Below are positions 1 to 46,679 of a DNA stretch of 64,000 nucleotides, in pieces. Where the stretch lies: the NCBI RefSeq assembly GCF_000372725.1, contig NW_005201851.1, positions 123,953 through 187,952 of the forward strand, in the 5' to 3' direction. The stretch's first letter is position 1. Each line of letters opens with the position of its first letter. The position numbers and the translations under genes were made by a program. The notes under the pieces are model-generated. The model made no database searches. It was not told the DNA's origin and saw only the letters and a list, made by a program, of their open reading frames with translations. Source of the stretch: Emiliania huxleyi CCMP1516. Its lineage: Eukaryota.

Positions 1-2620
1 GGGGAGATGCGGGGAGGTGCGGGGAAATGCGGGGAGGTGCGGGGAGATGCGGGGAGGTGCGGGGAGGTGCGGGGAGATCGCACCTCGCCCGCCTCGGGGG
101 GCGGCCTGTCCACGACGGACGGGTCGGTCTGCAGCCGCTCGGGCAGGTCGGTGGCTCGGATCTTCTCGTCAACGTCCGTCAGCATGGCCTGCGAGATATG
201 GGGGAGATGTGAGATATGGGGGAGATGGGGGGGAGGTGGGGGAGATCTGTGTCAGCATGGCCTGCGTGTGTTGTGTTGATATGAGAGATGGCGGAGAGAT
301 GGGGGAGAGATGGGGGAGATGTGGGGGAGATCTGTGTCAGCATGGCCTGCGAGATATGGGGGAGATATGAGAGATGGGGGAGAGATGGGGGAGATGTGGG
401 GGAGATCTGTGTCAGCATCGCCTGCGTGTGTTGTGTGAATATGAGAGATGTGGGAGAGATGGGGGAGATATGGGGGAGATGTGGGGAGATGTGGGGAGAT
501 CTGTGTCAGCGTCGCCTGCTTGAGCGTCTCCGGCTCGGCCAGCTGCGCCAGCCTCTCCTTGAGCCTGCCCTTGCCGCCGCCGCGCCGCGCCCGCTCCGCC
601 GCGCGCGCGCGCGCCTCCGCCCTGCGCACGCGCCGCTCCTCCTTGTCGGCCTGCTCCTCCTCGGTTAGGTCGAGGAAGTCGCCGTCCTAAGTCATTCACA
701 CCTGATCATTCTACAGGGAGCCGTTGAGTCGCATGCGTCGAGGAAGGCGCCGTCCTCTTCCGACGTCTCCTCGAGCAGCTCCGCCTCCGCCTCCACGCCG
801 GCCCCCTCCTCGCCCCCCCCCTCCTCGCCCTCCTCGACCGCACCGCCGGTGTACTCGAGCAGCTCGCGCAGCTCCGCGTCCGTGCCGAAGATGGCCTCGC
901 TCTCCTCCACCTGCTCCTCTCAACGGTCATAGTAATCATTAATTGTTCATGTGAATGGTAATGCCTCGCTCTCCTCCACCTGCTCCTCTCAACGTTCATA
1001 GTAATCATTAATTGTTCATGTGAATGGTAATGCCTCGCTCTCCCCCGCCTGCTCCGCGCGCTCGGCCGAGACGCCATCCTCGCGCCGCCGCCGGTGGAGC
1101 GCCTACTCCCATACCTCCACCCTACCCGAACCCAGCGGAGGGTTCGGGTACCGTGGGCGGTGCGGTGCGACCGCCTTGCCATGCGCGTCGACGATGAAGC
1201 CGTCGTCGTCGTCCTCGTCGCGCACCTCCTCCTCCCGCCCCCCCTCGCTGCCCTCGCCGCCGCCCTCCGCGCCGCCGCCGCCCTCGTCGTCGTCGTCGCC
1301 GCCAAAGAGCCGCGCCTGGCGCGGGGAGAGCGAGGCGAGGTCAGGGAGGGAGGGAGGGAGGGAGGGAGGGAGAGAGAGAGCGAGCGAGGGAGGGAGAGGA
1401 GGGAGGGAGGGAGGGGAGGGAGGGAGGGAGGGAGGGGAGGGAGGGAGGGCGGGCGGGCGGGCGGGCGGGCGGGCGGGAGGACAGGGCGAGAACCATGGGG
1501 GTAAGGGGGCAAGGGGAGGCGGCAGCGCTGTCTCGGAAGCGTCTCGGAAGTGTCTCGGAAGTGTCTCGGGAGTGTCTCGGAAGTGTCTCGGAAGTGTCTC
1601 GGAAGTGTCTCGGAAGTGTCTCGGGAGTGTCTCGGAAGTGTCTCGGAAGTGTCTCGGAAGTGTCTCGGAAGTGTCTCGGAAAGTTCGCCTGGATCTCGTC
1701 GGCGGTGTCTCCGACGACGGCGGCGGCGGAGGAGGCGGCGGGCTGGGGGCCTACAGTAGTTCACATTCTAGTAATAAAAAGAACAATTCCTTTACGGCGG
1801 CGGAGGAGGCGGCGGGCTGCGGACCCTTCTTGAGGCGCCCTCCGGCCGCGGTCTTCTTCGGCCGCGCGATCCCCGTGTTCTCCTGGCGAGCCGAGGGGAG
1901 AGGGGCCGGTGGGAGGGGCCGGGGGGGGGGGGGGGGGGGAAGGCTTCTTTGCCCCCCGCTGCACAGGCGCAACCCAAATGGCCAAAGGTGGGGGAAAAAG
2001 GGGAACCGGGGAAGGGGGCCGCAGGGAGGGAGTGGTGGGGCCGCCACCAAAGCGGCCTCCAAAAAGGCGGCCCGGACCGGGGGAGGCCCGGGCCAAGAAA
2101 ATGGTGGAATCCCTGCTCTGCTCTCCTCAATCAACCCCTCGTCGTCGGAATCCAACTCCACGGCCTTCCTCCCCTTGCGCGGGCCGATCTCGTCGTCCTC
2201 CTCCCTGCCCCTGTCGTCCCTGTCCTCGTCCTCGTCCTCCGTCATCACCGCCTCCTCGTCCTCCCAGTCCTTCTCTCCCTCCGCCGCCGCGCCCGACGCC
2301 GCGGGCTCGCTCGCGCCCGCGCCGCCGCCGCCGCCGTCGCCGCGCTGCGCGCCGCCGTCGCTGCTGCCGCCTGCCGCCGCCGCATTGGCAGCCGCGCCCT
2401 CAGGATCCCAGTCGTCGTCGTCGCCTGCGGCGCCGCCGCCGTCTCCGCCCCCGCCAGCCCCGCTCGAGGATGCCGCGGCCGAGGAGGCTGCGGCGCCGCC
2501 GCCGGCTGCAGCCGGCACAGGGCTCGGAGCCTGTGGAGCGGCGGGCCCGGCCTCGTCGTCCTCCTCGTCGGAGTCCACCACGACTCGCTTCATGCGCTTC
2601 CGCGCCGGCTCATCGCTCAT
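1..2620 (-). CDS. SPT6: Transcription elongation factor SPT6, 5' portion, multi-exon, continues beyond window start
   Basis: Acidic N-terminus from ATG 2620 (MSDEPARKRM...LDSDDEGLIEE), then DGFIVD and EESEAIFG. Exon 84-188 reads AMLTDVDEKIRATDLPERLQ, matching the conserved Spt6 LTDxDxEIRxTDLPERxQ motif. Region ~1770-2110 looks error-rich. Confidence 0.85.
190..510. repeat. GGGGAGAT-type 10-11 bp intronic satellite with interspersed copies of the exon junction
   Basis: Runs of gggggagat/ggggagatgt with repeated ctgtgtcagcatggcctgcg; a similar tract lies at 1-80. Confidence 0.85.
1529..1680. repeat. 11-bp satellite (GTGTCTCGGAA)n in an SPT6 intron
   Basis: Direct tandem copies visible. Confidence 0.9.
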
Positions 2621-7589: not shown

Positions 7590-9534
7590 ATGGCCTCGCT
7601 CCCCCGCATCGAGCGCACCCCAAGCACAGACACAGCCGACGAGCCCGCTCACAGCAGTGCGGAGCAAGCGTACGCCGCCCTCACCGCGGAACTGCAAAAA
7701 TCTGGCTTCGACGGTGTCGCTCTCTCCTTCTCCTCGCCACGCCCTTTGCTCCCTCCCCTCTCACTCTCGTCGCCGCTGCCTCAGTCGTCGCGCCGCTGCG
7801 AGCCGGCTGGTACAACGACTACATCCGCGAGCTCGGCCTCTCGACCGACTCGACGGCCTACCTGCAGGCGCCTCCCTCCCTCGCAGCCTGCGGATCGGCT
7901 GTGCCACTCCTCCCGCGTCTCTTCCCGCCGCGCCACAGCACTGGCCTCCCTCGGGCGTCTGCAGAGCCCACCACCGTCGCGCAGCGATTGCACAGGCGTC
8001 CGGCGAGCGGCACGCCTCGGGCGAGGAGGCGCCCTTTGCGCTCGCGCCGCTGCCCGACTTTGGGCGGTCGGGCGACGCGCTGGCGATACTCGTCGGCAAC
8101 TCGCGCGCCATGTGGCCGGCGTTCCTGCGCTGGCTCAAGGCGCAGAAGGACCCGGACGCCCTCTCCGACCCCGTCGACACCTTTGCAGCGGAGGCCATTT
8201 GCGGCGCTGTCGGCCGCTTCGCCGCCGCGTCCGCCGCAGCAGCCGGCCGAAAGGCGGCGGTGGCGCACGACAGCTTTTGGGCGTCCGACATGACGCCCAC
8301 GCGGCTGGTCGACATGAACCGCGCCGCGCGCGTCGCCGGAGTCTGCTACTTTAGCGACGCCATGTTCCTCAGCGTGCACCCGACGTTCGGCGCGTGGGTC
8401 GCGTTTCGCGCTGTCGTCGTGCTCGACCTGCCGGCAAGAGACACTGCCTAGACACTCCCTAGACACTTCCTAGACACTTCCTAGACGCTCCCTGGGCACT
8501 TTCTAGACACTTTCTAGACCTAGTCACTTCCTAGACACTTCCTAGACACTTCCTAGACACTTCCTAGACGCTTCCTAGACGCTTCCTAGACGCTTCCTAG
8601 ACGCTCCCTGGGCACTTTCTAGACACTTTCTAGACCTAGTCACTTCCTAGACACTTCCTAGACACTTCCTAGACACTTCCTAGACACTTCCTAGACACTT
8701 CCTAGACACCTCCTAGACACTTCCTAGACTCTTCCTAGACACTTCCTAGACACTTCGTAGACACTTCCTAGACACTTCCTAGACACTTCCTAGACACTTC
8801 CTAGACACTTCCTAGACACTTCCTAGACACTTCGTAGACACTTCCTAGACACTTCCTAGACACTTCCTAGACACTTCCTAGACACTTCCTAGACACTTCC
8901 TAGACACTTCCTAGACACTCCCTAGACACTCCCTAGACACTCCCTAGACACGTCCTAGACACTTCCTAGACACTCCCTAGACACGTCCTAGACACTCTTC
9001 GTGCTCGACTTGCCGGCGAGATGAACCTAGTCTGCCCGGGATCACCAGGCATCTCTCTCCTGCGGTGTTCCGAGAGAGTCCGAGATCGACCGAGATTTGG
9101 ACCGAGATTGACCGAGATTGGCCCGAGATTGACCGAGATTGGCCCGGGAGCAGGCGTCGCACCTGCGAGGCCCTCCCGCGCCGCTGCCTCCGCTGCTGAG
9201 TGACGACGAGGCGGCGGCAGCCAAGGCTGCGTTTGACGAGGCGCTGCGCTGCGTCGACATCACATTTGCTCGGAACTAGCAACGGTGCATGACACCGCGG
9301 TCCGGCTGTGACCAGGCGCTGCGTGCCTCGGCCGCGGAGGAGCTGCGTGTGGACGGCATGCCGCGGCACCTGGCGCACAAGTGGGCGGCGATGCGCGACT
9401 GCGTGCGCCGGGGGCGCGAGCACCGCTACGGCGCGCGGCAGAGCGAGTACCACTACACCAAGGACCGGTCTCTGCTCGCGGCGGAGCTGGCCAGGCTGGA
9501 GGCGGAGGAGGGGAAGCAGCGAAGCGGGCGGTGA
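7590..9534 (+). CDS. MMACHC: MMACHC/CblC-like cobalamin-processing protein, multi-exon
   Basis: Exon translations GWYND, LVGNSRAMW...DPVD, LSVHPTFGAWVAFRAVVV and HRYGARQSEYHY match CblC-family motifs (HPxFGxWxAxR; RYSxxQxxY). Confidence 0.75.
8440..8995. repeat. 11-bp satellite (TAGACACTTCC)n, intronic
   Basis: About 50 tandem copies. The same unit occurs at 20323-20458 (reverse) and within the 46-bp units at 42711-43025. Confidence 0.95.
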
Positions 9535-11986: not shown

Positions 11987-13075
11987 TCACCCAAGCCCGC
12001 TCCTCAGACCAGTTCGAGAAGGCTGCGCAAGCTGCGGGTCGACCGACGCCTGCGCTGCCCGCACCACCCGCGTGCGCTGCCGCTTCGCATTGACGCGCTT
12101 CTGGCGCCACAGTGTGCTGCTGCTATGCGCATTGCAGTGCGCCAGCGTGTCGCTGCCCCGCCAGTGGCGGCACTCGGACACGGGCGCGTCGCAGATGAGG
12201 CAATAGCAGTTGGGGCAAACCGCCTCGTTGCCATCGATTGGCGCCGCGACCAGCCTCTCGGCCGCATGGAAGGGGTGAAGCGGGCAGAGCGCCCGCTGGT
12301 GCGGCAAATGCTCGGGCAGCAGGCCTGTGCGGTGCAAGCAAGGGAGTGGGTAAGTGAGGATCATCTCACGTTGACTATTGACTAGTTCCGAAGCGCCTGA
12401 TGCGGCAGAGATCTGCACGTCGCCGCCTTCCAGCAACGGAGCGGCAGCGGCGGAGCTTTGAGGCGGCGGCGCCACCTCCTCCACCCCATCGTCATCGTCG
12501 CTCATCGCCCCCCCCTCCTCCTCCTCCGCCTCCGCCTCCTCCTCCTCCACCTCCACTTCCACCTCATCGTCCTCTCCCTCCCCCGCCGCCTCGCGTTGAA
12601 CGCTCGCGTCGGGCGCAGAGGGCGAGGCGTCGCTCGAGGATGACAGTGCGTCGCCGCCGCTGCCGCCGCCGCTGCTGCCGCCGCCGCCGCCTCCGCCACC
12701 AGCTCGCCTCGCACTCTGCCCCGCGTCTGTCGCTCCTCGCGCCCGCTTCTTCCTGACGGCACGCCCGCCCGCCGCCGCCGGCTCCGCCTCCCTCACCGCC
12801 CTCGCATACGCCACCGCCGCCTCCACCGCCGTGGCACAGCTGCCGAGGCTGACACTCCTCCCATTCACCATGTGCCGTGCCTCGAATCGGCCAGAGGATG
12901 AGTCCTCGCGCACGCCCCTGTAGCCGGTGGCGTTGCTGCTCGATAGGTGCAAGCGCAAGCCCTCCGCCTCCTCCTCGAGGACCTGCACGTGCCGCGGCGC
13001 CACGGCCTCCGCTGACGAAGGTTGAGCTGGAGGCTGGTACTCGCCGCCGCCGCCGCCGCCGCCGTGACTGGCCGA

Positions 13076-16199: not shown

Positions 16200-19100
16200 A
16201 TGGCTAAAGCCGTATCCGTGCAGCGTGCGCTACGCAGCTCTATGCTCCTGGGGCGGATAAGCGGCGCCACGCAAGGCGTGGGGCAGCGGCGCCGCCTCCC
16301 CCCCGGCCGGATCGGCGGCAGCCGAGGCGCCGCCCCCCTCCGCGCCGCCTCCCTCCGCACTGCCTGCCCCCGCGACGCCGCCTGCCGCCTCGCCGACGCC
16401 CCCCCCGGCGAGGAACTCCTCGCCACCAGCCTCCGCCTGCTCCGCCGCGCGCCTCGCTAGCCGCGCAGTCACCTCGTCAAGCTGCGCCAGGGCCGCGACC
16501 CTCGCCTCCGCCGTCTCCCCCAGCGCCGCACCCGCCTCCGCAGCCGCCGCCTCCGCAGCCCCATCGGCCGCCGTCAGAGCGGCGAGGCGAGCGGCGGCGA
16601 CTTGCGGGGCGGCGGCCTGCGGGGCGGCGGCCTGCGCCGACGCCACCCCCGCCCTCGCCTCCGCCGCCGCTGCCGCCGCCGCCGCCCTCGCGCGCAAGTC
16701 CGCGACCGCAAGCCCCTCGAGGGTCGAGTCGCCCTGCCGCGCCGCCAGCAGTCCGGCGTCGGCGAGTCGCAGGCGCCTCGTTGGTAATCACGCATAGTTA
16801 GCCCTCCACACAGACTGTGCGCTCAGACGGCGTCCGGCGAGACGCAAACGCCTCTCCAGCGTCGCGCGCTCGTCGCCCGACGCGCCGACCGCCGCGCGGG
16901 CGAGGTTGTCGCGCACCCGCTGCAACCGCGCGCTCGTCATGCCCCGCCGGTTGAGCGCCTGCTCTTGGACACGAGCGAGACTCAGCAGTCACAAACCAGC
17001 TCCAGCCCGCCGTGGCACGAAGGTTGAGCGCTCCTGTGATGGCTTACGAACGCGTCACGAGTCCATCATACAGCTCGCCATGCCCGGCGGGCAATGCGCC
17101 TCGTTGAGACGCGTCCCCTCCGCGAGCAGAGCGGCCTATTCACCGCCGCGAGCGTGAAGAGACGCCGTTCACACCCTCCCCGCCCGGCCACCTGCGAGAG
17201 CAAAAGAGGCCGACACAGAAGCCGCCTCCACCGTGGCTGGCGGGGAGTCTGCCCGCCTGTTCACACCGAAGCTGTGAAGAGCCGCCGTTCACACACAAGA
17301 CTGCGTCGTGCAGCGCGGAGAGCTCGGCCGCCCCAACGCCGGCGACTCCGCGAACCGCTGCTCGGCCGCTCGCGGCGGCGGCGGCGTTGCGAACGGCGGC
17401 TGCGGCTGCGGCTGCGGCGGCTGCTGCGGCTGCTGCGGCTGCGGTGGCTGCGGCGGCTGCTGCGGCTGCTGCGGCTGCTGCTGCGGCTGCTGCTGCGGCT
17501 GCGGTGGCTGCGGCGGCTGCTGCGGCTGCTGCGGCTGCTGCTGCGGCTGCTGCTGCGGCTGCTGCTGCGGCCGCGGCGGCCGGGGCGGCAAGGGTTCCTG
17601 AGGAAGCTGGCCGTTGTCGTCGTCCCGCAAGTACTCGGCGCGAAAGTCAGCCTATGGGACAGGTCCGTGAAGGGGAGCTCCCCGAGGAGGCTCGAGCGGC
17701 TGCCCCGCGGGTACTCGGTGCGGAAGTCGGCCCAGAGCAGCAGCATGGCGACCAGCGGCGCGACGGCGAGCTCCGCGGCGAGGCGCGCCTATTCACAGCA
17801 GCTGCTGTGAAGAGGCGCCGTTCACAGCGGAGGGACGGCGAGCTCCGCGGCGAGGCGCGCCGCCGCTCGCAGCGTCAGCAGCGGGTAGAGGAGGGCACGC
17901 CCTCCGCCTCCTCCGCCTCCTCCGCCTCCTCCGCCTCCTCCGCCCCCGCCCCCTTGGCGCGCGCCGGTGCCGAGCCGGTGGCGCAGCGCGCACAAGAGGG
18001 AGACGGCGAGGGCAGAGAGGGCGAAGACGCCGAGCAGGAGCAGCGGGAGGGGGAGCGCGTCCTCCGACAGGAGCCTGTTCCTTCATTACACACCGTTCAA
18101 CAGCAGTGATGGGCGGTGCGGCACAACCGTCCGACAAGCGCCTGTCCACTCAAAACGAGCAGTCAAGAACTGGCTAACGGTGGTGCCGCACAGCATCCTC
18201 CGACAGGCGCCGCGAAGTCGCCCGCCCCACCGCCGCCAGCAGCGCACCGATGCTGCCGGGCGGCGGCGGCGCGGCGGGGTTCGCGAGCAGTGCGTGGCCG
18301 ATGTCATATGAGGCGAGCGCGCCTAGAAGTAGTCCGTCTTGATGAAGGAGTCACTCCTCGATTAGCTGTCCCCCCGAGGTCGTATGAGGCGAGCGCGCCG
18401 CCGTCGTAGAGCACGAGCGCCGTCGGCGCGGCGTCGGGGCCGGAGCCTGCCACCGCAGGCAGCAGCAGCATCGCGAGGGGCTCGGCGCCTGTGCGGATGA
18501 GACGGAAGGGGTGCATCTCGGCTGTGCCTCTCGCTGCACCTCGGCTGCCTCTCTGCTACGTTCTGCTGTCTCTCTGCTGCCTCTCTGCTGCCTCTCTGCT
18601 GCCTCTCTGCTGCCTCTCTGCTGCCTCTCTGCTGCCTCTCTGCTGCCTCTCTGCTGCCTCTCTGCTGCCTCTCGGCTGCCTCTCGGCTGCATCTCGGCTA
18701 AGCCTCGCCCGCCAGCGCCTCCACCGCCGGCAGAATCGCCGTCTGCAGCCGCCAGGAGTCTGACGCGTCGACCTCGGCGGCCGCCCCCTCCCCCTCCGCC
18801 CCGCCCCCGCCCCCCGCCCCCGCCCCCTCTCTCCCCAGACCCGCCTCCGCCTCCCTTGCGCCGCCCTCCTCCTCCGCCAGCCTCGCCTCCTCCTCCTCCT
18901 CCACCTCCGCCTCCACCTCCGCCTCCTCCGCCGCCGCCTCCTCCGCCGCCTCCGCCTCCTCCTCCGCCTCCTCCCCCCCCTCCTCCGCCTCCTCCGCCTT
19001 CTCCGCCTCCGCCGCCTCCGCCTCCTCCGCCTCTGCCTCCAGCCCGAACCACCACAGCGCCCAGCGGCGCCACCTCCTCCACGCCCGCCCCACGAGCCGA

Positions 19101-22100
19101 GCGTGCCTAACGGCAACAGCGACAAGACATCGCGATCAGCGAGCGATCAACAGCCTGCCGCCGCGAGCCGCGAGCGCCTGAGGACAATGGCGGTGATTCG
19201 TTCTCAACGATGACCCATTCACACCCGCCCCCAGCGAGCCGGCCGAGCCTAGGCGAGACGCGAGCCGCATAAAAAAAGAAAACGCGGCCGTGCCAAGCAC
19301 CACCGCGCGGGGGATTTGGGAGCGCCAAGTGGCGCCAGACGCCGCGGCACGCGCCGCCGCGCCGCCCTCCCCCCTCGCCATCGCCTCCTCGAGCGCCGCC
19401 GCCGCGGCGAACGCGGCGGAGGCGGCGGAGGCGTTGAGCGAGAGGAGGAGGACCGCGTGCGGCGAGAGCAGCAGCGCGATCTGCGGCGCGGCCCCTACAG
19501 TCATGCCCCGTCAGCCGCTCCAGCCCGGCTGCGGACTCCTCACTCTGCCGCGGTCTGCGGGGCGGCTCCGTGGGCGAGCAGCGTGAAGGAGGAGGCGGCG
19601 ACGCCTAAGGGAAGAGAGCCGTGAAACAAAGGCCGGGCGACGGCAGCGTGAAGGAGGAGGCGGCGACGCCGTCGATCTCGAGCTCGAGCATACCCATGCC
19701 TGTAGGGAAGGCTGCGAGGCGGTTCAGGGAAGGCTCCTCCTCAATCTCCAGCCCGAGCATGCCCGTGCCGGTTAGCGTGGCCACGCTGTGACCGTGCGCG
19801 ACGGCGACGTGCTCGCCTGTTCACAGCCGGCAGGTGCGAAGCGGCGCCGTTCACACCGCGCGTGTGCCTCGGCCGTATCTCGCGCGTATCTCGGCTACAT
19901 CTCGCCGTCGGCAGACCCCCCCACGAGAGGACTCGCCGCCCCCGCCGCCTCGCCCGCCGCGCCGCCTCGCGAGCGCTGCGCCGCAGTTGTCGTCACCGCG
20001 CGGAGGACCCAGCCCCGCACCTGTTCACAGCTAGAGGTGTGAAGAGACGCTGTTCACAGCCGTCGTGGAGGACCCAGCCCCGCACCGGTTCGCAAGCCGG
20101 GAGCAGGCGGCGGGCTGGCGGCAGGCACCTGCGATGGTGAGAACATGGACACCTCCAAAGGCCCAGGGTTCCACAGCTAACTGTGGACAGCGTCATCTCT
20201 TCTAACTTCTCTCGATCCTACAAAGGGCGGGGACAGTACAGTATGGGATGTCTGTTCAGCAACAGCTCAGGCCCGTGCGGCTGTCGCGTGAGGCGGTGTG
20301 CGGTTGGCACGTGCCATTGGAGGTGTCTAGGAAGTGTCTAGGAAGTGTCTAGGAAGTGTCTAGGAAGTGTCTAGGAGGTGTCTAGGAGGTGTCTAGGAGG
20401 TGTCTAGGAAGTGTCTAGGAAGTGTCTAGGAAGTGTCTAGGAAGTGTCTAGGAAGTGTCCAGGCAGGCACCATGCAGGCGGCGCCCTGGCCCCTGGAGAG
20501 AGAAGGCGGACACGCAGACCCTCATCGCCGCCTGACTAGTTCATGGAGCAACACTCACTCACTGAGCCGCGGGAGTCACCCCTCGCCTCCCCTCCCCGCC
20601 GCCGTCGCCGTCGCCGCCGCCCGCGGGCGCAAGAACTTCGCCGACGAGAACCGACGCGTCCATCCGCCGCCGCCGCCGGTCCATCTCCACGCGCGCGGTC
20701 TCGAGGCCTGTCCAGCGGCGCGGGGGGGTGAGCGCAGCAGCCCCAAGCTCCACGCCGCAGCTCCACTCTCGAGGTCTCGCCTCCTCCTCCCCGCCCTCGC
20801 CGCGCGCTTGCCTCGAGACCCCCCTCGCCGCGAAGTTTAGGTTGTTGGTGTGGTCTTGCCGTCTTTTTTTTCTGTAGCCTAAGTTACTGTGCCCGGCTTT
20901 GTCAATTTTCATTTGACGTTTGTTCTGTTTGGGGCNNNNNNNNNNNNNNNNNNNNNNNNNNNNNNNNNNNNNNNNNNNNNNNNNNNNNNNNNNNNNNNNN
21001 NNNNNNNNNNNNNNNNNNNNNNNNNNNNNNNNNNNNNNNNNNNNNNNNNNNNNNNNNNNNNNNNNNNNNNNNNNNNNNNNNNNNNNNNNNNNNNNNNNNN
21101 NNNNNNNNNNNNNNNNNNNNNNNNNNNNNNNNNNNNNNNNNNNNNNNNNNNNNNNNNNNNNNNNNNNNNNNNNNNNNNNNNNNNNNNNNNNNNNNNNNNN
21201 NNNNNNNNNNNNNNNNNNNNNNNNNNNNNNNNNNNNNNNNNNNNNNNNNNNNNNNNNNNNNNNNNNNNNNNNNNNNNNNNNNNNNNNNNNNNNNNNNNNN
21301 NNNNNNNNNNNNNNNNNNNNNNNNNNNNNNNNNNNNNNNNNNNNNNNNNNNNNNNNNNNNNNNNNNNNNNNNNNNNNNNNNNNNNNNNNNNNNNNNNNNN
21401 NNNNNNNNNNNNNNNNNNNNNNNNNNNNNNNNNNNNNNNNNNNNNNNNNNNNNNNNNNNNNNNNNNNNNNNNNNNNNNNNNNNNNNNNNNNNNNNNNNNN
21501 NNNNNNNNNNNNNNNNNNNNNNNNNNNNNNNNNNNNNNNNNNNNNNNNNNNNNNNNNNNNNNNNNNNNNNNNNNNNNNNNNNNNNNNNNNNNNNNNNNNN
21601 NNNNNNNNNNNNNNNNNNNNNNNNNNNNNNNNNNNNNNNNNNNNNNNNNNNNNNNNNNNNNNNNNNNNNNNNNNNNNNNNNNNNNNNNNNNNNNNNNNNN
21701 NNNNNNNNNNNNAAGGATTGTGAGCAGCACTCCTCGCAATAGTAGCATCTTTGGGATTGTGAGCCCTTACGCTCGCAATCCTACATCTTCTAGGACTAAG
21801 AGCAGCTCCGCTCACAATGTGACTGGTGACGCCTACGACTACTACCAGCGCGCTCACAATCCGAGCAAGCTCTAGGGTTGCGAGCAGCTTAGCTCACAAT
21901 CCTAGCAACATGCCTTCGATTTCGAGCAAAAGCGCTCGCAATCCTAGAACTTTCGCCGATTGCGAGCGACAACGCCCACAGTCCTACGACTTCTAGGATT
22001 GCGAGCGGGTCCCCTCGCAATCGGTGCGATCACTGTTTGGATTGTGAGGAGACCCTCCCGGCGCGCTCACTCACAAGCGCTCGCGGCTGGAGCGATTGGG

Positions 22101-26910: not shown

Positions 26911-29900
26911 ATGAGCTTATCCGACGTGCGCATCCCGCTTCGCGCCGCGCGCCGCTGCCCGCGCACTCCACACGCCGCCGCGGCCGCGCGCGCCCGCACG
27001 ACCGCCGCTCCGCTCACGCCGCTCCCGCATGTGCCTGCAGCTGCTGTCGGACGAGTGGGTGCTTCAGTGGGTGGGCGGGCTGTTCGTGCTGCAGTTTGGC
27101 TGGATGGCCCTCCTCTACGTCGTCCCGTCGCCCATGTCGTCCGATGTCGGCATGGCGGCTCACCAGCTGACGGCGGCGGTGCCGTTTGCGTACGCCGCCT
27201 ACCACGGCACGCGGCTGTGGTACTTTGACGAGCAGCACGCGGCGCTGGGCGCCGACGCGCGCGGCCGCCTCTACGCCGCCTCCGAGGACGCCTTCTCCCT
27301 CGCTCGCTTCATGTTTGGGATGCAGGTCTGCTCGAGCCCCTTCCCGCGGAACCTTCCCGGAACCTTCCCTGAGCCTTCATGTTTGGGATTCAGGTCCGCC
27401 GGCCCGCTGTAGCACTCCCGGGCCTTCCCGGAACCTTCCCGGAGCCCGCCGAGACGCCCCCGAGACGCCTCCAGCTCCCCTTCCCGAGACGGCTCCCGGC
27501 GCGGTGCCTCGCTCCGGTAGGTCTTCGACCTGTTGGTGACCCTGATCGTACCGTCGCTGCGCAAGGCGCGCACCGAGGAGGACCCCCCTTCCAAACACGG
27601 ACCCTCCCTCCCCGGGGACTCGCCCCGGAGCGATCGCAGAGCGGTCGCCTCCCGCCCGCTCCGCGCCCAACACCGGATTCCTGTGGCCAGTGTGAAGCTG
27701 TGACGGTGTGAAGCTATGAGTGCCTCGGCTGGCTCTGAGTGCGTGTGTCTCCAGCAGGCGGAGCACTTGGTCCACCACGGGATGACCCTCCACCTCATAG
27801 TACCCGAACCCATCCCCTACCCCCACGGTACCGAACCCACAGGCGGAGCACTTGGTCCACCACGGGATGACCCTCCACCTCATAGTACCCGAACCCATCC
27901 CCTACCCCCACGGTACCGAACCCACAGGCGGAGCACTTGGTCCACCACGGGATGACCCTCCTCACCGCGCTGTGTGGCCTCTCGGGCCCGCTCCTCCTCT
28001 CCCCGCGGCTGCTGTGAACGGCGTCTCCTCACACCTGCAGCTGTGAACAGGCACCCTCCAGGAGGAGGAGGGCGTCTCGCTGTGAACGGCGTCTCCTCAC
28101 ACCTCCAGCTGTGAACAGGCACCCTCCAGGAGGAGGAGGGCGTCTCGCTGTGAACGGCGTCTCTTCACACCTCCAGCTGTGAACAGGCCCGTTTCTCATG
28201 TACCAGGCGCCTCATGAGTAGTTCGGACTCAGTTCGGACTCAAAGAGCGATGGAGACAGCGCCAAAGGCCGGCCACACACGTCCCGCCCCTCCTGCGCCA
28301 GGCCGCATTCTTCTTCGGCTTCGTCGAGGTCTCGTCGCTGCCGCTCGTGTTTGTTGACCTCTTCCGCCAGTTCCCGCGGCTGCACGAGGGGTCGCCCGCA
28401 GGCACACGAGATTGCACGAGATTGCACGAGATTGCACGAGATTGCACGAGGGGTCGCCCGCAGGCACACGAGATTGCACGAGATTGCACGAGATTGCACG
28501 AGATTGCACGAGGGCTCGCCCGCAGGCACACGAGATTGCACGAGATTGCACGAGATTGCACGAGATTGCACGAGGGGTCGCCCGCAGGCACACGAGATTG
28601 CACGAGATTGCACGAGATTGCACGAGATTGCACGAGGGGTCGCCCGCAGGCACACGAGATTGCACGAGATTGCACGAGATTGCACGAGATTGCACGAGGG
28701 GTCGCCCGCAGGCACACGAGATTGCACGAGATTGCACGAGATTGCACGAGATTGCACGAGGGGTCGCCCGCAGGCACACTCGCTCACCCACTCGCACCGG
28801 GCCTCGCACTTGGAATGCCGTGCCAGCTCCTGTCGCGTAGACGTGGAGACGCGAGGGACCAGCCCGGCCCTTGCCCCACACCACCTCCACCGTGTGTGGG
28901 GAGAAGTTTACCTCACCTTACCGCCCGCAGACCACGAGACGGCCCGAACCCTAGCTCTAACCGCAACCCTGACCCCAACCCTAGCCCTAACCCTAGCTCT
29001 AACCCTAGCCCTAACCCCAAACCTAACCCTGACCCCAACCCCAACCCTAACCCTGACCGCAACCCTGACCCCAGCCCTGACCCTCGCCCGCAGGCCATTC
29101 GGTCAACGAGACGGTGCGGGTCGCCTTCGCCCTCTCGTTCCTCCTGATTCGGTGCGTCCTCCGGCCGAGAGGCAGCAGAGAGGCAGCAGAGAGGCAGCAG
29201 AGAGGCAGCAGAGAGGCAGCAGAGAGGCAGCAGAGAGGCGGCCGAGATGCAGCAGAGAGGCAGCAGAGAGGCAGCAGAGAGGCAGCAGAGAGGCAGCAGA
29301 GAGGCAGCAGAGAGGCAGCAGAGAGGCAGCAGGGAGGCAGCCGGGAGGCAGCAGGGAGGTAGCCGGGAGGTAGCCGGGAGGTAGCAGCTCGGTCGCCGCT
29401 GGCCGAGAAGCACCGGCGGTTGCTGCAGCAAGCCGAGAGCGTGCGTGCGTGGCGTGGCACGCCTCGTGCTAGGTGCAACCTCGTGCAATCTCGTGCAATC
29501 TCGTGCAATCTCTGCTAGGTGCGTCCTCTGGCCGCTGGCGGTGCTGCAGCTGCTGCGTGACCTGTACGCGGTGTGGGCGGCGGGCGAACTGGAGGGGCAG
29601 CTGCAGATGGCTACCTTCTGCGTCACCTGCTCGGCGCTCCCCGCCCACACCGCGCTCCCCGCCACCCCGCCACCGCCCCCACCGCCCCCTCCACCGCCGC
29701 CCCCACCGCCGCCCCCACTGCCGCGTTGCCGCCGCCGTGTCCGCTTCGCCCTACACGCCGCCGGCCTTTCCTCGCCGCCGCCCTCGCCGCCGCCCCTCGC
29801 CGCCGCCCCTCGCCGCTGCCAGCTCTGCTGGGGGCGAGAGAGCATTGGCCGATCGTCGGCCAACCACGGCGCGCCCTTAGGTGCTAACCTTCCTGCAGCT

Positions 29901-40660: not shown

Positions 40661-41188
40661 CGCGTGCAGACAGCTTGCGGCTGTTTGCGTCACCATGGTC
40701 GCCCCCGCGTGACACTTCCGTTTTTCTTTCGGTGCTAAGTGCATTGCCGCTCTTAACGGAGTCGCTTAGGCGGCTCCGGTGGTGTGCCGGTGATAGTACT
40801 AGCACGCGCCAGTTCGCACCTGTGTCGAGCCTAAGAAAACAGACACGCCAAACGAGGGATGGGACGAGGACAGGGTCCCCACCTGCACGAGCAGGATTTT
40901 GGAAGGACGATCAGGGGGACAGGTGGGGCTCTCCTGCTCCTGACAAGGGACACGACAGGCTCGCAGCGCGGTGCGCGGTGGACTCCCACATCCACTGGCG
41001 GTCTCATCTCAGTCTAGCGACCTGCCTCCAGCTTGTCGCTGGCAGTCTCTCCTACCACAGGCACACTGACACAGGGGTGGCAGGGGCGGCGGCACGAGTC
41101 TCCCACATACTATGCGGGCCTCACTAGAGGTGCGGCCTGTGCGTGTCCTCGCCCTTGAGGGGGGAGGGGAAGGGGCTGTGTGTCTGTG

Positions 41189-42093: not shown

Positions 42094-45000
42094 ATGTGGT
42101 CGCTCACGCTCGGTGCGGCGCTCGCCAACGTCGGCTGCTCCGTCTCGCTAGTGCTCGTCAACAAGGCTCCGGAAGATACAGCCCCGGCCTGACCCTTCCC
42201 GCTCCACCTCCGCCGCCATCCGCCGTCCTCCGCCGCCAGCCGCGAAGCCGTGGCACACCTCCGACCCCGCAGGCGGTCTTCTCGGCTGGCTTCAACTTCC
42301 CCATGTCGCTCACCTTCCTCCACTTTGCCTTTACCGTCGCGTTCTACCGCCTGCTCGCAGCGTGCGGCGCCTTTGAGCCTCAGTCGCTGCCGCACGCAGA
42401 GGCGTTCAAGGTTGCCGGGTTTGGCGTCGGAAGCATCGGCTTCATGAACATCTCGCTCCACCTCAACTCGGTCGGCTTCTACCAGATCACGAAGCTCGCC
42501 ATAGTGCCGTGCACGCTGCTCGCACAGGCACCTTTTTAAGCCCTCGCCAGCCGCCTCTCGGCCGCACCTCGGCCGCACCTCGGCCGCCCACCTCGACGGC
42601 CTCTCGGCTCCACCTCGCGCAGGCGCTCCTGCACGACGTGCACGCCTCGCGCCGTGTGAAGCTCTCGCTCCTCCTCCTCCTCCTCGGCCTCGCCGTCGCC
42701 ACCGTCTCGGACGTGAGACACTTCCTAGACACTTCCTAGACGCGTCCTAGACACCGTCTCGGACGTGAGACACTTCCTAGACACTTCCTAGACGCGTCCT
42801 AGACACCGTCTCGGACGTGAGACACTTCCTAGACACTTCCTAGACGCGTCCTAGACACCGTCTCGGACGTGAGACACTTCCTAGACACTTCCTAGACGCG
42901 TCCTAGACACCGTCTCGGACGTGAGACACTTCCTAGACACTTCCTAGACGCGTCCTAGACACCGTCTCGGACGTGAGACACTTCCTAGACACTTCCTAGA
43001 CGCGTCCTAGACACCGTCTCGGACGTGTGCAGCTCCCCCTAGAAGCGAGTGTGCATTCTTGCTCCTCAGCGCAATCTCGTCTTCCGCCCGCTGACGTCGG
43101 GTGTACTCAGCACGCAGGTCCAGCTCAATGCGCCCGGCCTCGTCCTCGGCTTGCTCGCCGTCGCCACCACCACAATCTTCCAGATCTGGCAAGGCTCCAA
43201 GCAAAAGGCGACACTTCCTAGACACTCCCTAGACACTTCCTAGACACCACCGTCTTCCAGATCTGGCAAGGCTCCAAGCAAACGGTGCTCGAGCTGCCTC
43301 GCCACGCCGCCGTGTCGGCCGGCTGATTCTTTCTTTTCATCCATCCGTCGTCAGTCGTAGGAGCTCGAGCTGTCCGCGACGCAGCTGCAGGCGGCCGTCG
43401 CCAGCAGTGGCGGCGTCACCTCTCCACCGCTTTGCATCGCCTCACAGCCTTTTCTTTCACAGGCGGCCGTGGCGATTTGGCAGGTGCCGCAGGCGGTCGC
43501 TCGCCCGCTTGTTCACAGCTCGAGGTGTGAAGAGACGCTGTTCACAGGTGCCGCAGGCGCTCGCGGCGGCGATTGCGCTGGAGAACCTCTGCGCAGGCCC
43601 GCCTCGCCTTGAGAGATTGCACGAGATTGCACGAGATTGCACGAGATTGCACGAGATTGCACGAGATTGCACGAGGTTGAGCAGCGATGTGTGCAGCCGC
43701 TTCAGAGGCCCGGCCATACGAACTGCTGTCTGTGGCGATGCCTCTCCCTGAGAACGCACACACCGCCTCGTGTGGTCACGCCCCGTGTATCCCGCGAGTG
43801 CGTGTGCCCCGTCGCCCGGTGCGAGGGACGTGTCACACACACACACTCACTGATGACGGACTGGCTGACTGAGAGGAGGCCGTGCTCAAGGGCTCCCCCC
43901 TGGACGAGTGTGTGATGAGTGGCTCGCGTCTTGAAGGGGCGTACGGCCTGGCTCCCTAGTACGGACGCACGTGACCCCGCCCACACCTCTGCGCAGGTTT
44001 GCCTCCCGCACTCCGCTCGGAGGAGCCAGGAGAGTGCCGGACGGCGGTCGGGTTCGCCCAGCAAGCCGCGAACGGCGGCGGCGGCGACGGGGGCGGCGGC
44101 GCGCGCACACTGGCGCTGGTGGTGCTGACCTGCTTCGTCGCCCTTGGGACGAACGTCTCCTCGTTTTGCCTCATCGGCCGCACGTCGGCAATCACCTTCC
44201 AGGTGGTCGGGCGACCTGCCTCGTATCTCCGCACGTCTCCCTCGCATCTCTCCGGAATTCTCCGCCCCCAAGGATTCGGTACTTAGGCGGCGGGGGATCT
44301 GGATTCGGTACTTTAGGTGGTCGGGCATGCCAAGACCTGCCTCGTCCTCGCGGGCGGGTTTTTGCTCTGGCCTCCCGCGGACACGTCGCACTTGCCCACG
44401 CAGCTCGTCGGCGTCTCCGTCGCCGTCCTCGGCTGCGTCCTCTATTTCTTTTTTAACCTGTGTTTCTTTTTTAGGCGTCTCGGTCGCCGTCCTCGGCTGC
44501 GTGCTCTACGGCCATCTCAAGCTGAGCGAGGCTACCGGCCGGAGAGACTTGTGCGACCGCCTCTGCCCCGCGCCGCTGCTGTGGGTCGCGACAGACCCCC
44601 CGCCGAGGTTCGAGATACAACCCGAGATACAGCCGAGATGCAGCTGGAGATACAGCCGAGATGCAGCCCGAGATACAGCCCGAGATACAGCCGAGATACA
44701 GCCCGAGATACAGCCGAGACACAGCGGGGATGCAGCCGAGATGCAGCCGATCTAGCCGAGATCCGGACGAGATCCTGCCGAGCTCCTGCCGAGCTCCTGC
44801 CGAGGCCCAGCTCGCATACAGCCGAGGTACGTACAGCCGCGGCTGCACCACCCCGTCCACACCTCCCCCCGCGAATCAGGTACGAGCCGCTGCCTGCGTC
44901 GGGGGAGCTCATCCCGGCGGCGGAGCTGTCCGCGTCGGACGCCAAGGTGGCTTAATTATTCATGATTAATTAATAGCAATCTTAGTTCATTCAGCGGACC

Positions 45001-45413
45001 TGTCCGCGTCGGACGCCAAGGTGGCTTAATTATTATGATTAATTAATAACAATCTTAGTTCATTCAGCGGACCTGTCCGCGTCGGACGCCAAGGTGGCTT
45101 AATTATTCATGATTAATTAATAGCAATCTTAGTTCATTCAGCGGACCTGTCCGCGTCGGACGCCAAGGTGGCTTAATTATTCATGATTAATTAATAGCAA
45201 TCTTAGTTCATTCAGCGGACCTGTCCGCGTCGGACGCCAAGGTGGCTTAATTATTATGATTGATTAATAGCAATCTTAGTTCATTCAGCGGACCTGTCCG
45301 CGTCGGACGCCAAGGTGGCTCTGCGGCGGCCGGGCCCGGGGGGAGGGGCTGCAGACGAGGCGGCCGACGGCGGGGGGGCGGAGGCGCGGTCCGACGAGGA
45401 GCGGCGGAGATGA
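42094..45413 (+). CDS. Nucleotide-sugar transporter (TPT/SLC35E, UXT/URGT-like), multi-exon
   Basis: NVGCSVSLVLVNK, FPMSLTFLHF, MNISLHLNSVGFYQITKLAIVP, IGRTSAITFQ|VVGHAKTCLVL. Confidence 0.9.
44927..45320. repeat. ~74-bp tandem repeat (exon end + AT-rich filler) x5, probably forming the last intron
   Basis: Unit ctgtccgcgtcggacgccaaggtggcttaattattcatgattaattaatagcaatcttagttcattcagcggac. Confidence 0.9.

Positions 45414-46635: not shown

Positions 46636-46679
<44 letters not shown>

What the first reader, a model, noticed from the sequence alone, without database searches (positions are those of the whole stretch)
42094..45413. Introns that begin with a copy of the downstream exon: recurring signature of intron gain by duplication
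Seen in the transporter: 43391-43462 (CAG|GCGGCCGT at both ends), 43484-43547 (15-bp CAGGTGCCGCAGGCG), 44203-44316 (AGGTGGTCGGGC), 44411-44474 (~34-nt near copy) and 44947-45314 (AAG|GTGGCT array). The same pattern occurs in SPT6 (189-514, 911-1048), near 17762-17860, 20002-20086, 23330-23598 and in the TLC gene. Removing the intervening DNA restores conserved protein. Known: duplication of AG|GY proto-splice sites and staggered-break repair are proposed but rarely observed routes to intron gain. Inference: an active, genome-wide intron-generating process that would also explain frequent GC donors.
Basis: partly seen in the sequence, partly recalled or inferred. Interest (0 to 1): 0.78.

Follow-up and report, generated by a model that had tools for sequence, protein, structure and literature searches.

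The report
Introns born from duplicated exon ends
In an Emiliania huxleyi transporter gene and its neighbours, about half of the spliced introns carry a 10-35-base copy of the adjoining exon across their splice sites. This likely marks them as young introns, created when short DNA was inserted into an intact exon and the target was duplicated.

Summary
The window is Emiliania huxleyi DNA. The 42094-45413 gene is an SLC35E3/TPT-type transporter with 11 introns. Transcript contigs and a 401-aa E. huxleyi protein support that model.

- **Repeats at the junctions:** of 17 canonical transcript-supported introns in at least three genes on both strands, 8 have an exact direct repeat of 10-27 nt straddling both splice junctions, and a ninth has 15/16. 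The window-wide chance rate is 3.4% (P about 3e-8).
- **Fossil junctions:** four introns, one of which also has such a repeat, hold a copy of the uninterrupted exon-exon junction inside them.
- **Donor matches exon:** the donor type (GT or GC) equals the first two bases of the next exon in 15 of 17.
- **Relatives:** ORFs of other haptophytes read straight through T1 and through T5-T10, so these introns look lineage-specific. The T2 position is shared with close relatives.

The repeat can lie on either side of the junction. The inserted DNA of at least four sites is one dispersed ~42-nt hairpin element, whose ends supply the 3' splice site in both orientations.

Best reading: intron birth by insertion with a long, variable target duplication. 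This lies between fixed-duplication "introners" and Daphnia-type break repair. Genome-wide reach and current activity are untested.

The parts
42094..45413 (+). SLC35E3/TPT-type sugar-phosphate transporter gene: 12 exons, 11 introns (T1-T11), CDS 1206 nt
   Evidence: Spliced model is open and gives 401 aa. It is 99% identical over exon 2 to the UniRef E. huxleyi protein P0001 (PF03151), and differs by 3 aa over the full length.
42166..42272 (+). Intron T1 (GC-AG, 107 nt); repeat is only AG|GC
   Evidence: Protein colinearity. ORFs P0002-5 of relatives read straight across this site. Retained in one X3 contig.
42528..42622 (+). Intron T2 (GC-AG, 95 nt); repeat CAGGC (10/11)
   Evidence: Joint 42524>42620 in 4 of 4 runs. 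Relatives' ORFs lose homology exactly here.
42713..43117 (+). Intron T3 (GT-AG, 405 nt). Holds a 52-nt x 6.3 array (42700-43027, 100% identical) whose unit is exon end + donor + insert. A fossil of the intron-less junction lies at 43012-43035.
   Evidence: score 15 against a control maximum of 10. The contig length arithmetic of X3 record 9 fits exons 3-7.
43208..43360 (+). Intron T4 (GC-AG, 153 nt). Compound intron: a diverged copy of the spliced exon4/exon5 junction lies at about 43255-43310.
   Evidence: Joint 43205>43359 in 4 of 4 runs. Fossil score 39.5 against 0 in 16 control introns.
43391..43462 (+). Intron T5 (GC-AG, 72 nt) flanked by CAG|GCGGCCGT (43388-43398 and 43460-43470)
   Evidence: The micro-exon 43463-43483 (AAVAIWQ) is present in P0001 and in homologues.
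43484..43547 (+). Intron T6 (GT-AG, 64 nt). It consists of the repeat CAG|GTGCCGCAGGCG (43481-43495 and 43545-43559), 13 nt, then the TTCACAG hairpin element (43508-43547), which supplies the acceptor.
   Evidence: Eight X3 contigs diverge exactly at 43547 (table 7).
43597..43996 (+). Intron T7 (GC-AG, 400 nt). The upstream exon end ACCTCTGCGCAG|G is copied at the intron end (43585-43597 and 43985-43997). Holds a (GAGATTGCAC)n array.
   Evidence: Joint with 13 shared letters in 4 of 4 runs.
44203..44316 (+). Intron T8 (GT-AG, 114 nt). It begins with a copy of exon 9's start: 12+12 nt, with a 7-nt deletion.
   Evidence: Unspliced ORF P0028 from another strain carries it.
44411..44474 (+). Intron T9 (GC-AG, 64 nt): a 35-nt copy of exon 10's start (33/35) plus a 30-nt T-rich filler that ends in the acceptor
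   Evidence: Joint with 20 shared letters in 3 of 4 runs. P0026 shows a 1-nt shorter T-run in another strain.
44608..44879 (+). Intron T10 (GT-AG, 272 nt) with an 11-mer array and a junction fossil at about 44821-44843
   Evidence: Contig pieces. The array is shorter in P0026 and P0039.
44947..45314 (+). Intron T11 (GT-AG, 368 nt): a 74-nt unit x 5.4. Each unit is a 33-nt exon-junction copy (..GCCAAG|GTGGCT) plus a 41-nt filler of 20% GC.
   Evidence: Contig pieces of X6 and X9.
9241..9315 (+). Intron h (GC-AG, 75 nt) in another gene; repeat TGAC.AG|GCGCTGCG (14/15)
   Evidence: Joint in 4 of 4 runs.
16959..17099 (-). Intron j (GC-AG, 141 nt); repeat only AG|GCGC
   Evidence: Joint in 3 of 4 runs.
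17136..17210 (-). Intron k (GC-AG, 75 nt). It holds the hairpin element (17136-17175) in reverse orientation; the element end gives the acceptor GAATAG.
   Evidence: Joint in 3 of 4 runs.
18075..18210 (-). Intron l (GC-AG, 136 nt). It begins with a copy of the next exon's start: 15/16 in register by count; 16 of 18 bases by my reading.
   Evidence: Joint in 3 of 4 runs.
18323..18398 (-). Intron m (GC-AG, 76 nt). It begins with a 16-nt exact copy of the next exon's start (24/26 extended).
   Evidence: Joint with 17 shared letters in 2 of 4 runs.
12325..12396 (-). Intron n (GC-AG, 72 nt) in the AP2-domain gene; repeat only CAG|GC
   Evidence: Joint in 1 of 4 runs.
17789..17860 (-). Predicted, untested 72-nt GC-AG intron: hairpin element (17790-17829) between two exact 28-nt copies (17762 and 17834)
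   Evidence: No joint was listed.
20021..20085 (-). Predicted, untested 65-nt GT-AG intron: hairpin element (20021-20060, 97% identical to the T6 copy) between two exact 20-nt copies (20002 and 20067)
19605..19669 (-). Predicted, untested 65-nt GC-AG intron between two exact 28-nt copies (19578 and 19643); the filler ends in a pyrimidine tract + TAG
28011..28186 (-). Three tandem copies of the hairpin element (68-nt period)
894..1055 (-). Repeat-filler units: a ~26-32-nt GC-rich repeat plus a 27%-GC filler, 69 nt x 2. Splicing is untested.

Best explanation
These are real, spliced introns. About half of them were most likely created when a short piece of DNA was inserted into an intact exon together with a 10-35-base duplication of the target.

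**What the sequence shows.** The layout is repeat - filler - repeat. Splicing removes exactly one repeat plus the filler, so the original reading frame is restored. The donor GY always lies in, or at the edge of, the first repeat copy. The acceptor AG lies either in the second copy (repeats that contain AG|GY: T5-T8, T11, h) or at the end of the filler (T9, l, m, k).

**The inserted DNA.** At four independent sites or more, the filler is one dispersed ~42-nt element. It has a TTCACA/TGTGAA hairpin and ~10-nt terminal direct repeats. Its two ends read ..ACAG or ..ATAG outward, so it can supply a 3' splice site in either orientation while the donor comes from the duplicated target.

**Inferred.**
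- One insertion machinery cuts the target with a long, variable stagger. It carries this element as its commonest cargo and other short DNA as well.
- Only insertions that happen to be spliceable survive inside exons.
- Later slippage between the two repeat copies expands repeat+filler units into arrays (T3, T11).
- Second hits at the same AG|G site build compound introns that keep a fossil of the uninterrupted junction (T3, T4, T10).
- Because donors are copied from exonic AG|GY, a GC-rich coding sequence yields mostly GC donors.
For: **Splicing and gene model.** Contigs of five runs skip the intervals. The model gives 401 aa and is colinear with homologues.

**Repeats.** 8 of 17 canonical introns have an exact junction-straddling repeat of 10 nt or more. 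A ninth has 15/16. The null rate is 3.4% of 10,096 pseudo-introns, giving P = 3e-8. In the second, independently sampled stretch, 3 of 6 show it.

**Positions next to the splice sites.** Intron positions +3..+10 match the next exon at 79 of 136 positions against 45 expected, with no shuffle of 20,000 reaching it. The donor dinucleotide equals the exon's first two bases in 15 of 17 against 8.8 expected (p = 0.0013).

**Fossils.** Copies of the uninterrupted junction lie inside T4 (39.5 vs 0), T11 (30.5 vs 0), T3 (15 vs a maximum of 10) and T10 (11.5 vs 0).

**Element.**
- The 26-nt core occurs 5 times at 3 mismatches or fewer, against 0 expected.
- Copies are 89-97% identical.
- They sit in different repeat contexts of 15/20, 20 and 28 nt.
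- The hairpin is kept in 5 of 5 folded copies.
- Two copies lie in transcript-supported introns, T6 and k.
- Eight X3 contigs diverge exactly at the element's end.

**Lineage.** Relatives' ORFs run uninterrupted over T1 (P0002-5, contigs up to 14.1 kb), T5-T8 (P0037, 37.5-kb contig) and T8-T10 (P0033 cluster, contigs up to 10.4 kb).

**GC donors.** AGGC/(AGGC+AGGT) is 0.72 in coding ORFs, against 12/17 GC donors.

**Published catalogues.** They list short introner families in E. huxleyi: mean length 37-70 nt, target duplication unresolved, and one family with '10bp terminal direct repeats, co-opt 5' carry 3'' (supplement rows).
Against: - No presence/absence polymorphism was seen. ORFs of other strains (P0026, P0028, P0039) all carry T8-T11.
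- A duplication of variable length (10-35 nt) fits no known transposase. No autonomous partner, inverted terminal repeats or coding capacity were seen.
- The element gave 0 matches in viral contigs.
- The fillers of T5, T8, T9, h, l and m have no second copy in the 64 kb, so a mobile origin is unshown for them.
- 5 of 17 introns (T1, T2, j, k, n) show only 4-6 nt. In the 9 introns without a long simple repeat, the tests are not significant (p = 0.08-0.17).
- T1 is absent from relatives yet has no long repeat.
- P0006 loses homology exactly at T8's position, so that site may be older, or was hit twice.
- The evidence from relatives rests on ORF read-through logic, not on their DNA.
- The runs are only guessed to be RNA.
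- The sample is one window, and the main gene was chosen because it shows the pattern.
Confidence: 0.55

Rival explanations
1. Ordinary repair of staggered double-strand breaks by the host (end joining with captured filler DNA), as proposed for new Daphnia introns. No dedicated mobile element is involved. The hairpin element is just an abundant sequence that gets captured.
For: - Repeat lengths vary from 10 to 35 nt.
- Most fillers are unique in the window and differ widely in composition: GC 0.20-0.61 against 0.65 for the window.
- Extra bases (5-13 nt) lie between the element and the repeat.
- Eleven of 32 repeat-filler-repeat sites have no canonical excision within the exact repeat. This suggests a general mutational process not tied to splicing.
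Against: - The same element with the same ends recurs in at least four different repeat contexts, and its ends serve as acceptor in both orientations.
- Daphnia repeats are 4-12 bp; here they reach 35 nt.
- The unit length clusters at 64-76 nt in 17 of 27 sites that I tallied by hand. Random filler capture does not predict this.
Confidence: 0.27
2. No intron gain. The introns are old, and this repeat-prone genome later made tandem duplications that happened to span existing splice sites.
For: - The window is full of tandem arrays.
- Array units in T3 and T11 include the exon end plus the donor.
- Array length differs between strains.
- Isolated direct repeats of 11 nt or more number 147, against 14-40 in shuffles, so duplication is rife everywhere.
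Against: - A duplication across an existing acceptor would put the exon copy in the middle of the intron, flanked by duplicated intron sequence. It would not put it at the intron's first base, as seen in T5, T6, T8, T9, h, l and m.
- It cannot explain fossils of the uninterrupted junction.
- It cannot explain the absence of T1 and T5-T10 in other lineages.
Confidence: 0.08
3. Classical tandem duplication of an exon segment containing AGGT, with no foreign DNA. The intron would be a copy of the downstream start followed by a copy of the upstream end.
For: The repeats contain AG|GY in T5-T8, T11 and h. T11's repeat spans both sides of the junction.
Against: The rest of each intron is unrelated to the upstream exon (T5, T6, T8, T9, m). 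A filler is always present.
Confidence: 0.03
4. For the compound introns only (T3, T4, T10): a fragment of spliced cDNA was inserted into an older intron, for example in a failed cDNA-mediated intron loss. This rather than two hits at one site.
For: The layout 'exon end - filler A - junction copy - filler B - exon start' fits a single insertion into a pre-existing intron equally well.
Against: It does not explain the simple repeats that abut the splice sites. It needs a separate process in the same gene.
Confidence: 0.05
5. Chance similarity from GC-rich composition and the splice consensus.
For: A repeat of 3-5 nt (AGG, CAGGC) is expected from the consensus alone. Sixty per cent of pseudo-introns reach 4 nt.
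Against: P about 3e-8 for 8 of 17 at 10 nt or more. The permutation tests agree.
Confidence: 0.01

Closest known systems
New introns of Daphnia pulex made by repair of staggered double-strand breaks (PMC4202315, abstract and passages read; Li et al. 2009 recalled)
   Same: [quoted passage not shown] The inserts differ from site to site. Secondary events inside new introns and repeated use of one site are described.
   Different: Daphnia repeats are 4-12 bp; here they are 10-35 nt. Here one dispersed element recurs as the insert, and repeat+insert units expand into arrays. Daphnia gains are shown by population presence/absence, which I could not test.
Introner-like elements of dinoflagellates (Symbiodinium, Polarella; bioRxiv 10.1101/2020.10.14.339549, passages read), and of Micromonas and Aureococcus (Huff et al. 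2016, recalled)
   Same: - The element carries one splice site, and the target duplication supplies the other or both (AGGH).
- The intron's 5' end and the next exon start share the duplicated motif.
- Introns are made in both orientations.
- GC and GA donors follow from the target.
   Different: Those duplications have a fixed length per family (3-8 nt), and the elements have inverted repeats. Here the duplication is long and variable, the element is only ~42 nt with terminal direct repeats, and most inserts are not (visibly) family members.
Introner families catalogued in E. huxleyi CCMP1516 (Gozashti et al. 2022, PMC9860276, Suppl. Tables 5-6; Gozashti et al. 2025, PMC12130899, dataset sd07; supplement rows only, no Emiliania in either main text)
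   Same: Very short families (mean 37-70 nt) lying mostly in genes. One is noted as '10bp terminal direct repeats, co-opt 5' carry 3''. That fits the TTCACAG element, though no sequence was available to compare.
   Different: The target duplication is given as '?' or as 2-4 nt. Copy numbers are low (5-308). Nothing is said about 10-35-nt exon duplications, fossil junctions, arrays or GC donors.
Introns made by tandem duplication of an AGGT-containing exon segment (Rogozin model, recalled; potato RdRp case PMC4974935, abstract from a search listing)
   Same: Both splice sites derive from a duplicated AG|GY proto-splice site.
   Different: Those introns consist only of duplicated exon sequence. 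Here unrelated filler lies between the copies.

Membership tests
Introners / introner-like elements | Many near-identical copies dispersed in unrelated genes | tested here: inconclusive
   Met for the TTCACAG element: 5 core matches against 0 expected, about 8-10 copies in 64 kb, 89-97% identity. Not met for the fillers of T5, T8, T9, h, l and m. But only 64 kb could be searched.
Introners / introner-like elements | Target-site duplication of a length characteristic of the family | tested here: not met
   Duplications flanking the same element are 15 (19/20), 20 and 28 nt.
Introners / introner-like elements | Element and/or duplication supply the splice sites, and the insert is spliced out precisely | tested here: met
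   In T6 the acceptor is the element's 3' end and the donor lies in the repeat. In k the acceptor is the reverse-strand end of the element. Both have contig joints. The sites at 17789-17860 and 20021-20085 are only predicted.
Introners / introner-like elements | Descent from a known transposon (inverted repeats, transposase, autonomous copy) | not tested
   The element has terminal direct repeats, not inverted ones, and no coding capacity. No genome was available to look for a partner.
Break-repair neointrons (Daphnia type) | [quoted passage not shown] | tested here: met
   9 of 17 canonical introns.
Break-repair neointrons (Daphnia type) | Intron present in some individuals or populations and absent in others | not testable with these tools
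   No DNA runs were listed. The ORFs of other strains all carry T8-T11.
Tandem-duplication introns (AGGT model) | Intron made only of duplicated exon sequence | tested here: not met
   Fillers of 30-387 nt are unrelated to the flanking exons.
TPT / SLC35E3 transporter (the host gene) | Match to PF03151 and colinearity with family members | tested here: met
   P0001 (99% identical over exon 2) and 17 further hits carry precomputed PF03151, and the alignment is colinear. Single exons alone gave 0 Pfam hits.

The most novel reading that the evidence does not exclude
Most introns of Emiliania huxleyi, and its odd majority of GC-AG introns, are young products of one duplicative insertion process that makes 10-35-nt target duplications. 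That mechanism class fits neither fixed-duplication introners nor Daphnia-type repair. It uses a ~42-nt hairpin element as a portable 3' splice site in either orientation. If so, the world's most abundant coccolithophore is a natural system in which intron birth, array growth and decay can be read directly from sequence.
Probability: 0.35. Interest if true: 0.82.

Novelty: new variant of a known kind. Interest (0 to 1): 0.66.

Why it matters
How new spliceosomal introns arise is a long-standing question with few clear natural cases.

- **Birth marks still legible.** Roughly half the introns in a small, partly unbiased sample still carry them: long exon duplications, fossil uninterrupted junctions, and a reusable mini-element that brings the 3' splice site.
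- **A testable reason for GC donors.** About 60% of E. huxleyi donors are GC (Feldmesser et al. 2014, PMC4028052, passages read). On this reading the donor is copied from exonic AG|GY, and AGGC outnumbers AGGT 105 to 40 in coding DNA of this window.
- **Intron richness among haptophytes.** E. huxleyi is more intron-rich than other sequenced haptophytes, and the cause is called an open question (PMC8379373, passage read).
- **Possible gap in the catalogues.** Published introner catalogues list E. huxleyi only in supplements, with the target duplication unresolved. Long, variable duplications may be what their methods missed.

Tried and rejected
**Genome and reads**
- No whole genome is held for this window, so no genome-wide test was possible.
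- The look-up of sequencing runs listed no holder on record as RNA or DNA. All 14 rows are 'RNA?' guesses.
The sites at 19578, 20002, 23330 and 28011 therefore have no transcript check.
- For 17762 no joint was among the 15 of 42 rows shown.

**Joints dropped before counting**
- From: 8 long skips between RCC1 paralogues or repeats, with sides of 20-46 nt.
- From: 8 rows with sides of 21-32 nt or seen in a single run.
- After: 4 more without canonical ends (32669-32735, 51040-51101, 9550-10484, 46098-47271).

**Other collections and libraries**
- The metagenome scan with exon 8 gave one locus, L001. tblastn shows it is not a homologue.
- Viral contigs held 0 matches to the element.
- Rfam gave 0 matches in 41500-46000.
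- Pfam on single exons gave 0 hits.
- Pfam did not support the 'SPT6' label. No family reached E <= 0.001 for the minus-strand ORFs of 255-6212, and only weak unrelated hits appeared at E <= 0.5. No TLC domain was found.

**Weak or negative tests**
- Spliceability of 32 repeat-filler-repeat sites: 19 against 11 in a mirror control, Fisher p = 0.08, not decisive.
- Earlier findings of this scan held nothing on this genome or sequence.

**Literature**
- Eight searches found no paper describing exon-duplication-flanked introns in E. huxleyi.
- The genome paper (Read et al. 2013) is not held. Its supplements might describe the intronic repeats.


Full report
**What the locus is**

The window is 65% GC. 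The frame that runs from 42094 to 45413 through 12 exons gives an open 1206-nt CDS. Exon 2 is 99% identical to a 401-aa UniRef protein of Emiliania huxleyi named 'Sugar phosphate transporter domain-containing protein' (PF03151). Further hits are named SLC35E3. My spliced model is also 401 aa, differs from that protein at 3 residues, and is colinear with nine haptophyte homologues at every junction. So the organism is E. huxleyi, the gene is a TPT/SLC35E3-type transporter, and removing the proposed intervals restores a conserved protein.

**Are the introns spliced?**

- No run is on record as RNA. The 14 holders carry about 35-39% of the stretch's words.
- Their contigs skip the proposed intervals. 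Joints were listed for T2, T4, T5+T6 (with the 21-nt micro-exon left unplaced by the aligner), T7 and T9. Contig pieces bracket T8, T10 and T11.
- In X3 record 9, the 271 letters between the pieces ending at 42524 and starting at 43985 equal the summed lengths of my exons 3-7. This covers T3-T6 (my arithmetic).
- Some contigs retain introns, for example X3 over 44183-44344.
- The runs are only guessed to be RNA. Still, contigs that lack all introns at GY-AG borders, come from several studies, and agree with the protein are best read as transcripts.

**A second, unselected sample**

In the stretch 9000-18500, joints listed gave six more canonical introns: h (+) and j, k, l, m, n (-). They lie in at least two other genes. 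In all I examined 21 joints. Seventeen are canonical after sliding. Four were dropped for lack of GY-AG ends. Sixteen further listed rows were dropped earlier as repeat-driven or poorly anchored; they are listed under Tried and rejected.

**The observation**

| Intron | Exact repeat straddling both junctions | Extended |
|---|---|---|
| T5 | 11 nt | |
| T6 | 15 nt | 19/20 |
| T7 | 13 nt | |
| T8 | 12 nt | 24/24 with a 7-nt gap |
| T9 | 20 nt | 33/35 |
| T11 | 27 nt | 32/33 |
| h | 10 nt | 14/15 |
| m | 17 nt | 24/26 |
| l | (3 nt exact) | 15/16 |

- Among 10,096 pseudo-introns in the window with AG|GY..AG|G ends, 3.4% reach 10 nt. That figure includes the tandem arrays and the true introns.
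- Eight of 17 then gives P = 3e-8.
- In the second stretch alone, 2 of 6 reach 10 nt exact (P = 0.016).
- Shuffling donor/acceptor pairings gives 79 matches at positions +3..+10 against 45 expected, with no shuffle of 20,000 reaching it. At positions -3..-10 it gives 52 against 40 (p = 0.02).

- The repeat straddles the junction and can sit on either side.
- In T7 and T11 it is mainly the upstream exon's end that is copied at the intron's end.
- In T9, l, m and k the repeat starts at the donor, and the acceptor AG belongs to the filler.
- In T5-T8, T11 and h both splice sites lie inside a repeat that contains AG|GY.

Four introns contain a copy of the uninterrupted exon-exon junction.

| Intron | Score | Control (the other 16 introns) |
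|---|---|---|
| T4 | 39.5 (56 aligned columns) | 0 |
| T11 | 30.5 | 0 |
| T3 | 15 | maximum 10 |
| T10 | 11.5 (13.5 with another gap cost) | 0 |

T3 and T4 read as: exon end - filler A - [copy of exon end + copy of next exon start] - filler B - exon start. That is two repeat-filler-repeat events at one AG|G site. An alternative is a cDNA fragment dropped into an older intron. Together with the simple cases, 12 of 17 introns carry a duplication signature. T1, T2, j, k and n show only 4-6 nt.

- The fillers of T6, k, 17790 and 20022 are one element of about 42 nt. There are three tandem copies at 28011-28186 and partial copies at 17272, 19817, 53827 and 60292.
- The 26-nt core matches 5 times at 3 mismatches or fewer, against 0 expected. 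TTCACAG itself occurs 21 times against 5.8 expected.
- The element has a TTCACA/TGTGAA hairpin, kept in 5 of 5 folded copies with z-scores of -0.4 to -5.5.
- It has terminal direct repeats of about 10 nt.
- Its 3' end reads ..GTTCACAG and serves as the acceptor of T6. The reverse complement of its 5' end reads ..GTGAA(C/T)AG and serves as the acceptor of the minus-strand intron k.
- Three copies sit between exact duplications of different sequence and length: 15 (19/20), 20 and 28 nt.
- The copies at 17790 and 20022 are predicted to be minus-strand introns of 72 and 65 nt built exactly like k. This is untested.
- Eight X3 contigs match up to 43547 and then diverge, so the element's end is a boundary in other transcripts too (table 7).

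**Other fillers**

- The fillers of T5, T8, T9, h, l and m have no second copy in the window.
- Several fillers are strikingly AT-rich for this genome: T9 0.23, T11 0.20, 911-1048 0.27.
- By my hand tally, repeat plus filler measures 64-76 nt in 17 of 27 sites (range and median checked). Two E. huxleyi introner families in the 2022 catalogue have a mean length of 70.

**Age and distribution**

I could not get DNA of relatives. The metagenome scan gave only a false locus. ORFs called on contigs of other haptophytes are still informative, because they read on until a stop.

- **T1 and T2.** P0002-P0005, P0073 and P0074 are 80-84% identical, one is labelled Tisochrysis lutea, and their contigs reach 14.1 kb. 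They run straight over T1 and lose homology exactly at T2. So T1 is absent there, and the T2 position is shared.
- **T5-T8.** P0037, on a 37.5-kb contig, is continuous over model residues 173-293. T5-T8 are therefore absent.
- **T8-T10.** Fourteen of the 16 members of the P0033 cluster are ORFs of 142-165 aa, on contigs up to 10.4 kb. The four I aligned (P0033, P0059, P0060, P0061) start near residue 240 and align uninterrupted to residue 348. T8-T10 are therefore absent there.
- **Whole protein.** The P0012/P0049 cluster has ORFs of 386-417 aa covering nearly the whole protein, on contigs up to 312 kb. Some of these may come from annotation or from transcripts.
- **Against a simple picture.** P0006 loses homology exactly at T8's position, and T1 lacks a long repeat.
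- **Other E. huxleyi strains.** P0026, P0028 and P0039 carry T8-T11. They differ by a 1-nt change in T9's T-run and by shorter T10 arrays. The arrays therefore evolve fast, but no empty site was seen.

**GC donors**

- Twelve of 17 donors are GC.
- The donor dinucleotide equals the next exon's first two bases in 15 of 17. The exceptions are T4 and T7. The expectation is 8.8 (p = 0.0013).
- In the nine introns without a long simple repeat it is 7 of 9 against 4.6 expected (p = 0.08).
- In 12,288 nt of coding ORFs in the window, AGGC outnumbers AGGT 105 to 40, a share of 0.72.
- Published donor counts for E. huxleyi are 56-65% GC (PMC4028052, passages).
- This agrees with donors being copied from exonic AG|GY. 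A mutational drift from GT to GC would fit the totals as well, but not the per-intron match.

**Mechanism**

Shown:
- The layout repeat - filler - repeat.
- Exact excision of one repeat plus the filler.
- A recurring element that provides the acceptor in both orientations.
- Arrays whose unit is repeat plus filler.
- Fossil junctions.

Inferred:
- Insertion into intact exons at breaks with a long, variable stagger.
- Survival only of the spliceable events.
- Later slippage between the repeat copies.

Of 32 repeat-filler-repeat sites, 19 have a canonical excision within the exact repeat, against 11 in a mirror control (p = 0.08). The eleven without either a canonical excision or a known splice suggest that the process also acts outside exons. 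I favour an introner-like insertion machinery with the hairpin element as main cargo (0.55) over plain host break repair with captured filler (0.27). The variable duplication length fits no known transposase, and target-primed insertion is only a guess.

**Comparison with what is known**

- **Daphnia new introns** show the same exon-end copy at the opposite intron end, but it is 4-12 bp long (PMC4202315).
- **Dinoflagellate introner-like elements** take the donor, or both sites, from a fixed 3-8-nt duplication. Their introns share their first bases with the next exon (preprint).
- **E. huxleyi CCMP1516** is listed with 653 introner copies in five families, with the target duplication marked '?' or 'N' (PMC9860276, Suppl. 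Tables 5-6). It is also listed with three families in PMC12130899 sd07. One of those is noted as '10bp terminal direct repeats, co-opt 5' carry 3''. Neither main text mentions Emiliania.
- Eight literature searches found no description of long exon duplications at E. huxleyi introns. The genome paper and its supplements were not available.

I therefore rate this a new variant of a known kind.

**Verdict**

Genome-wide extent, current activity and the inserting enzyme remain open.

Noticed in passing
window 20937-21713: Assembly gap (run of N). It accounts for the apparent GC dip to 0.37 in 20001-22000.
   Followed up: yes
window 1541-1680, 8447-8965, 20320-20460, 42716-43014, 43210-43247: Arrays of one 11-mer family (CTTCCTAGACA and variants, both orientations) recur at five places. 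Two of them lie inside transporter introns. Contig depth there is about 100 times that of the gene's own contig, so the motif is probably common across transcripts.
   Followed up: partly
window 43613-43679 and 28405-28761: The 10-mer array (GAGATTGCAC)n of intron T7 recurs as six 47-nt blocks spaced 62 nt apart at 28405-28761.
   Followed up: no
window 41795-41850 vs 42041-42112: The transporter's 5' end (three blocks of 14-17 nt; the last one begins 5 bases after the start codon) is duplicated about 250 nt upstream, with about 190 nt between. It may be another repeat-filler-repeat event in the 5' UTR.
   Followed up: no
window 24121-25674(+), 37747-39207(-), 39561-40910(-), 52040-52984(+), 58026-59453(+): Five paralogous long ORFs encode RCC1 repeats, three of them with an F-box-like match at the N-terminal end. 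Contig depth over 37336-40670 is very high, and many spurious long joints link the copies.
   Followed up: partly
window 54692-55553: A tandem repeat of a 189-nt unit, about 4 copies, with long exact blocks (114-349 nt).
   Followed up: no
window 6204-6321, 22763-22872, 48800-48989, 60041-60121: Further isolated repeat-filler-repeat structures (repeat 13-20 nt, spacing 68-174 nt) with no canonical excision. They may be the same process acting outside exons.
   Followed up: partly
P0019 and P0013 (proteins): In another haptophyte lineage, the ORF has an in-frame insertion 2-3 codons after E. huxleyi's T3 site. The insertion ends with a second 'VQL', which hints at a similar duplication at nearly the same place.
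   Followed up: no
window 28947-29072: Short AACCCT-like (telomere-like) degenerate repeats.
   Followed up: no
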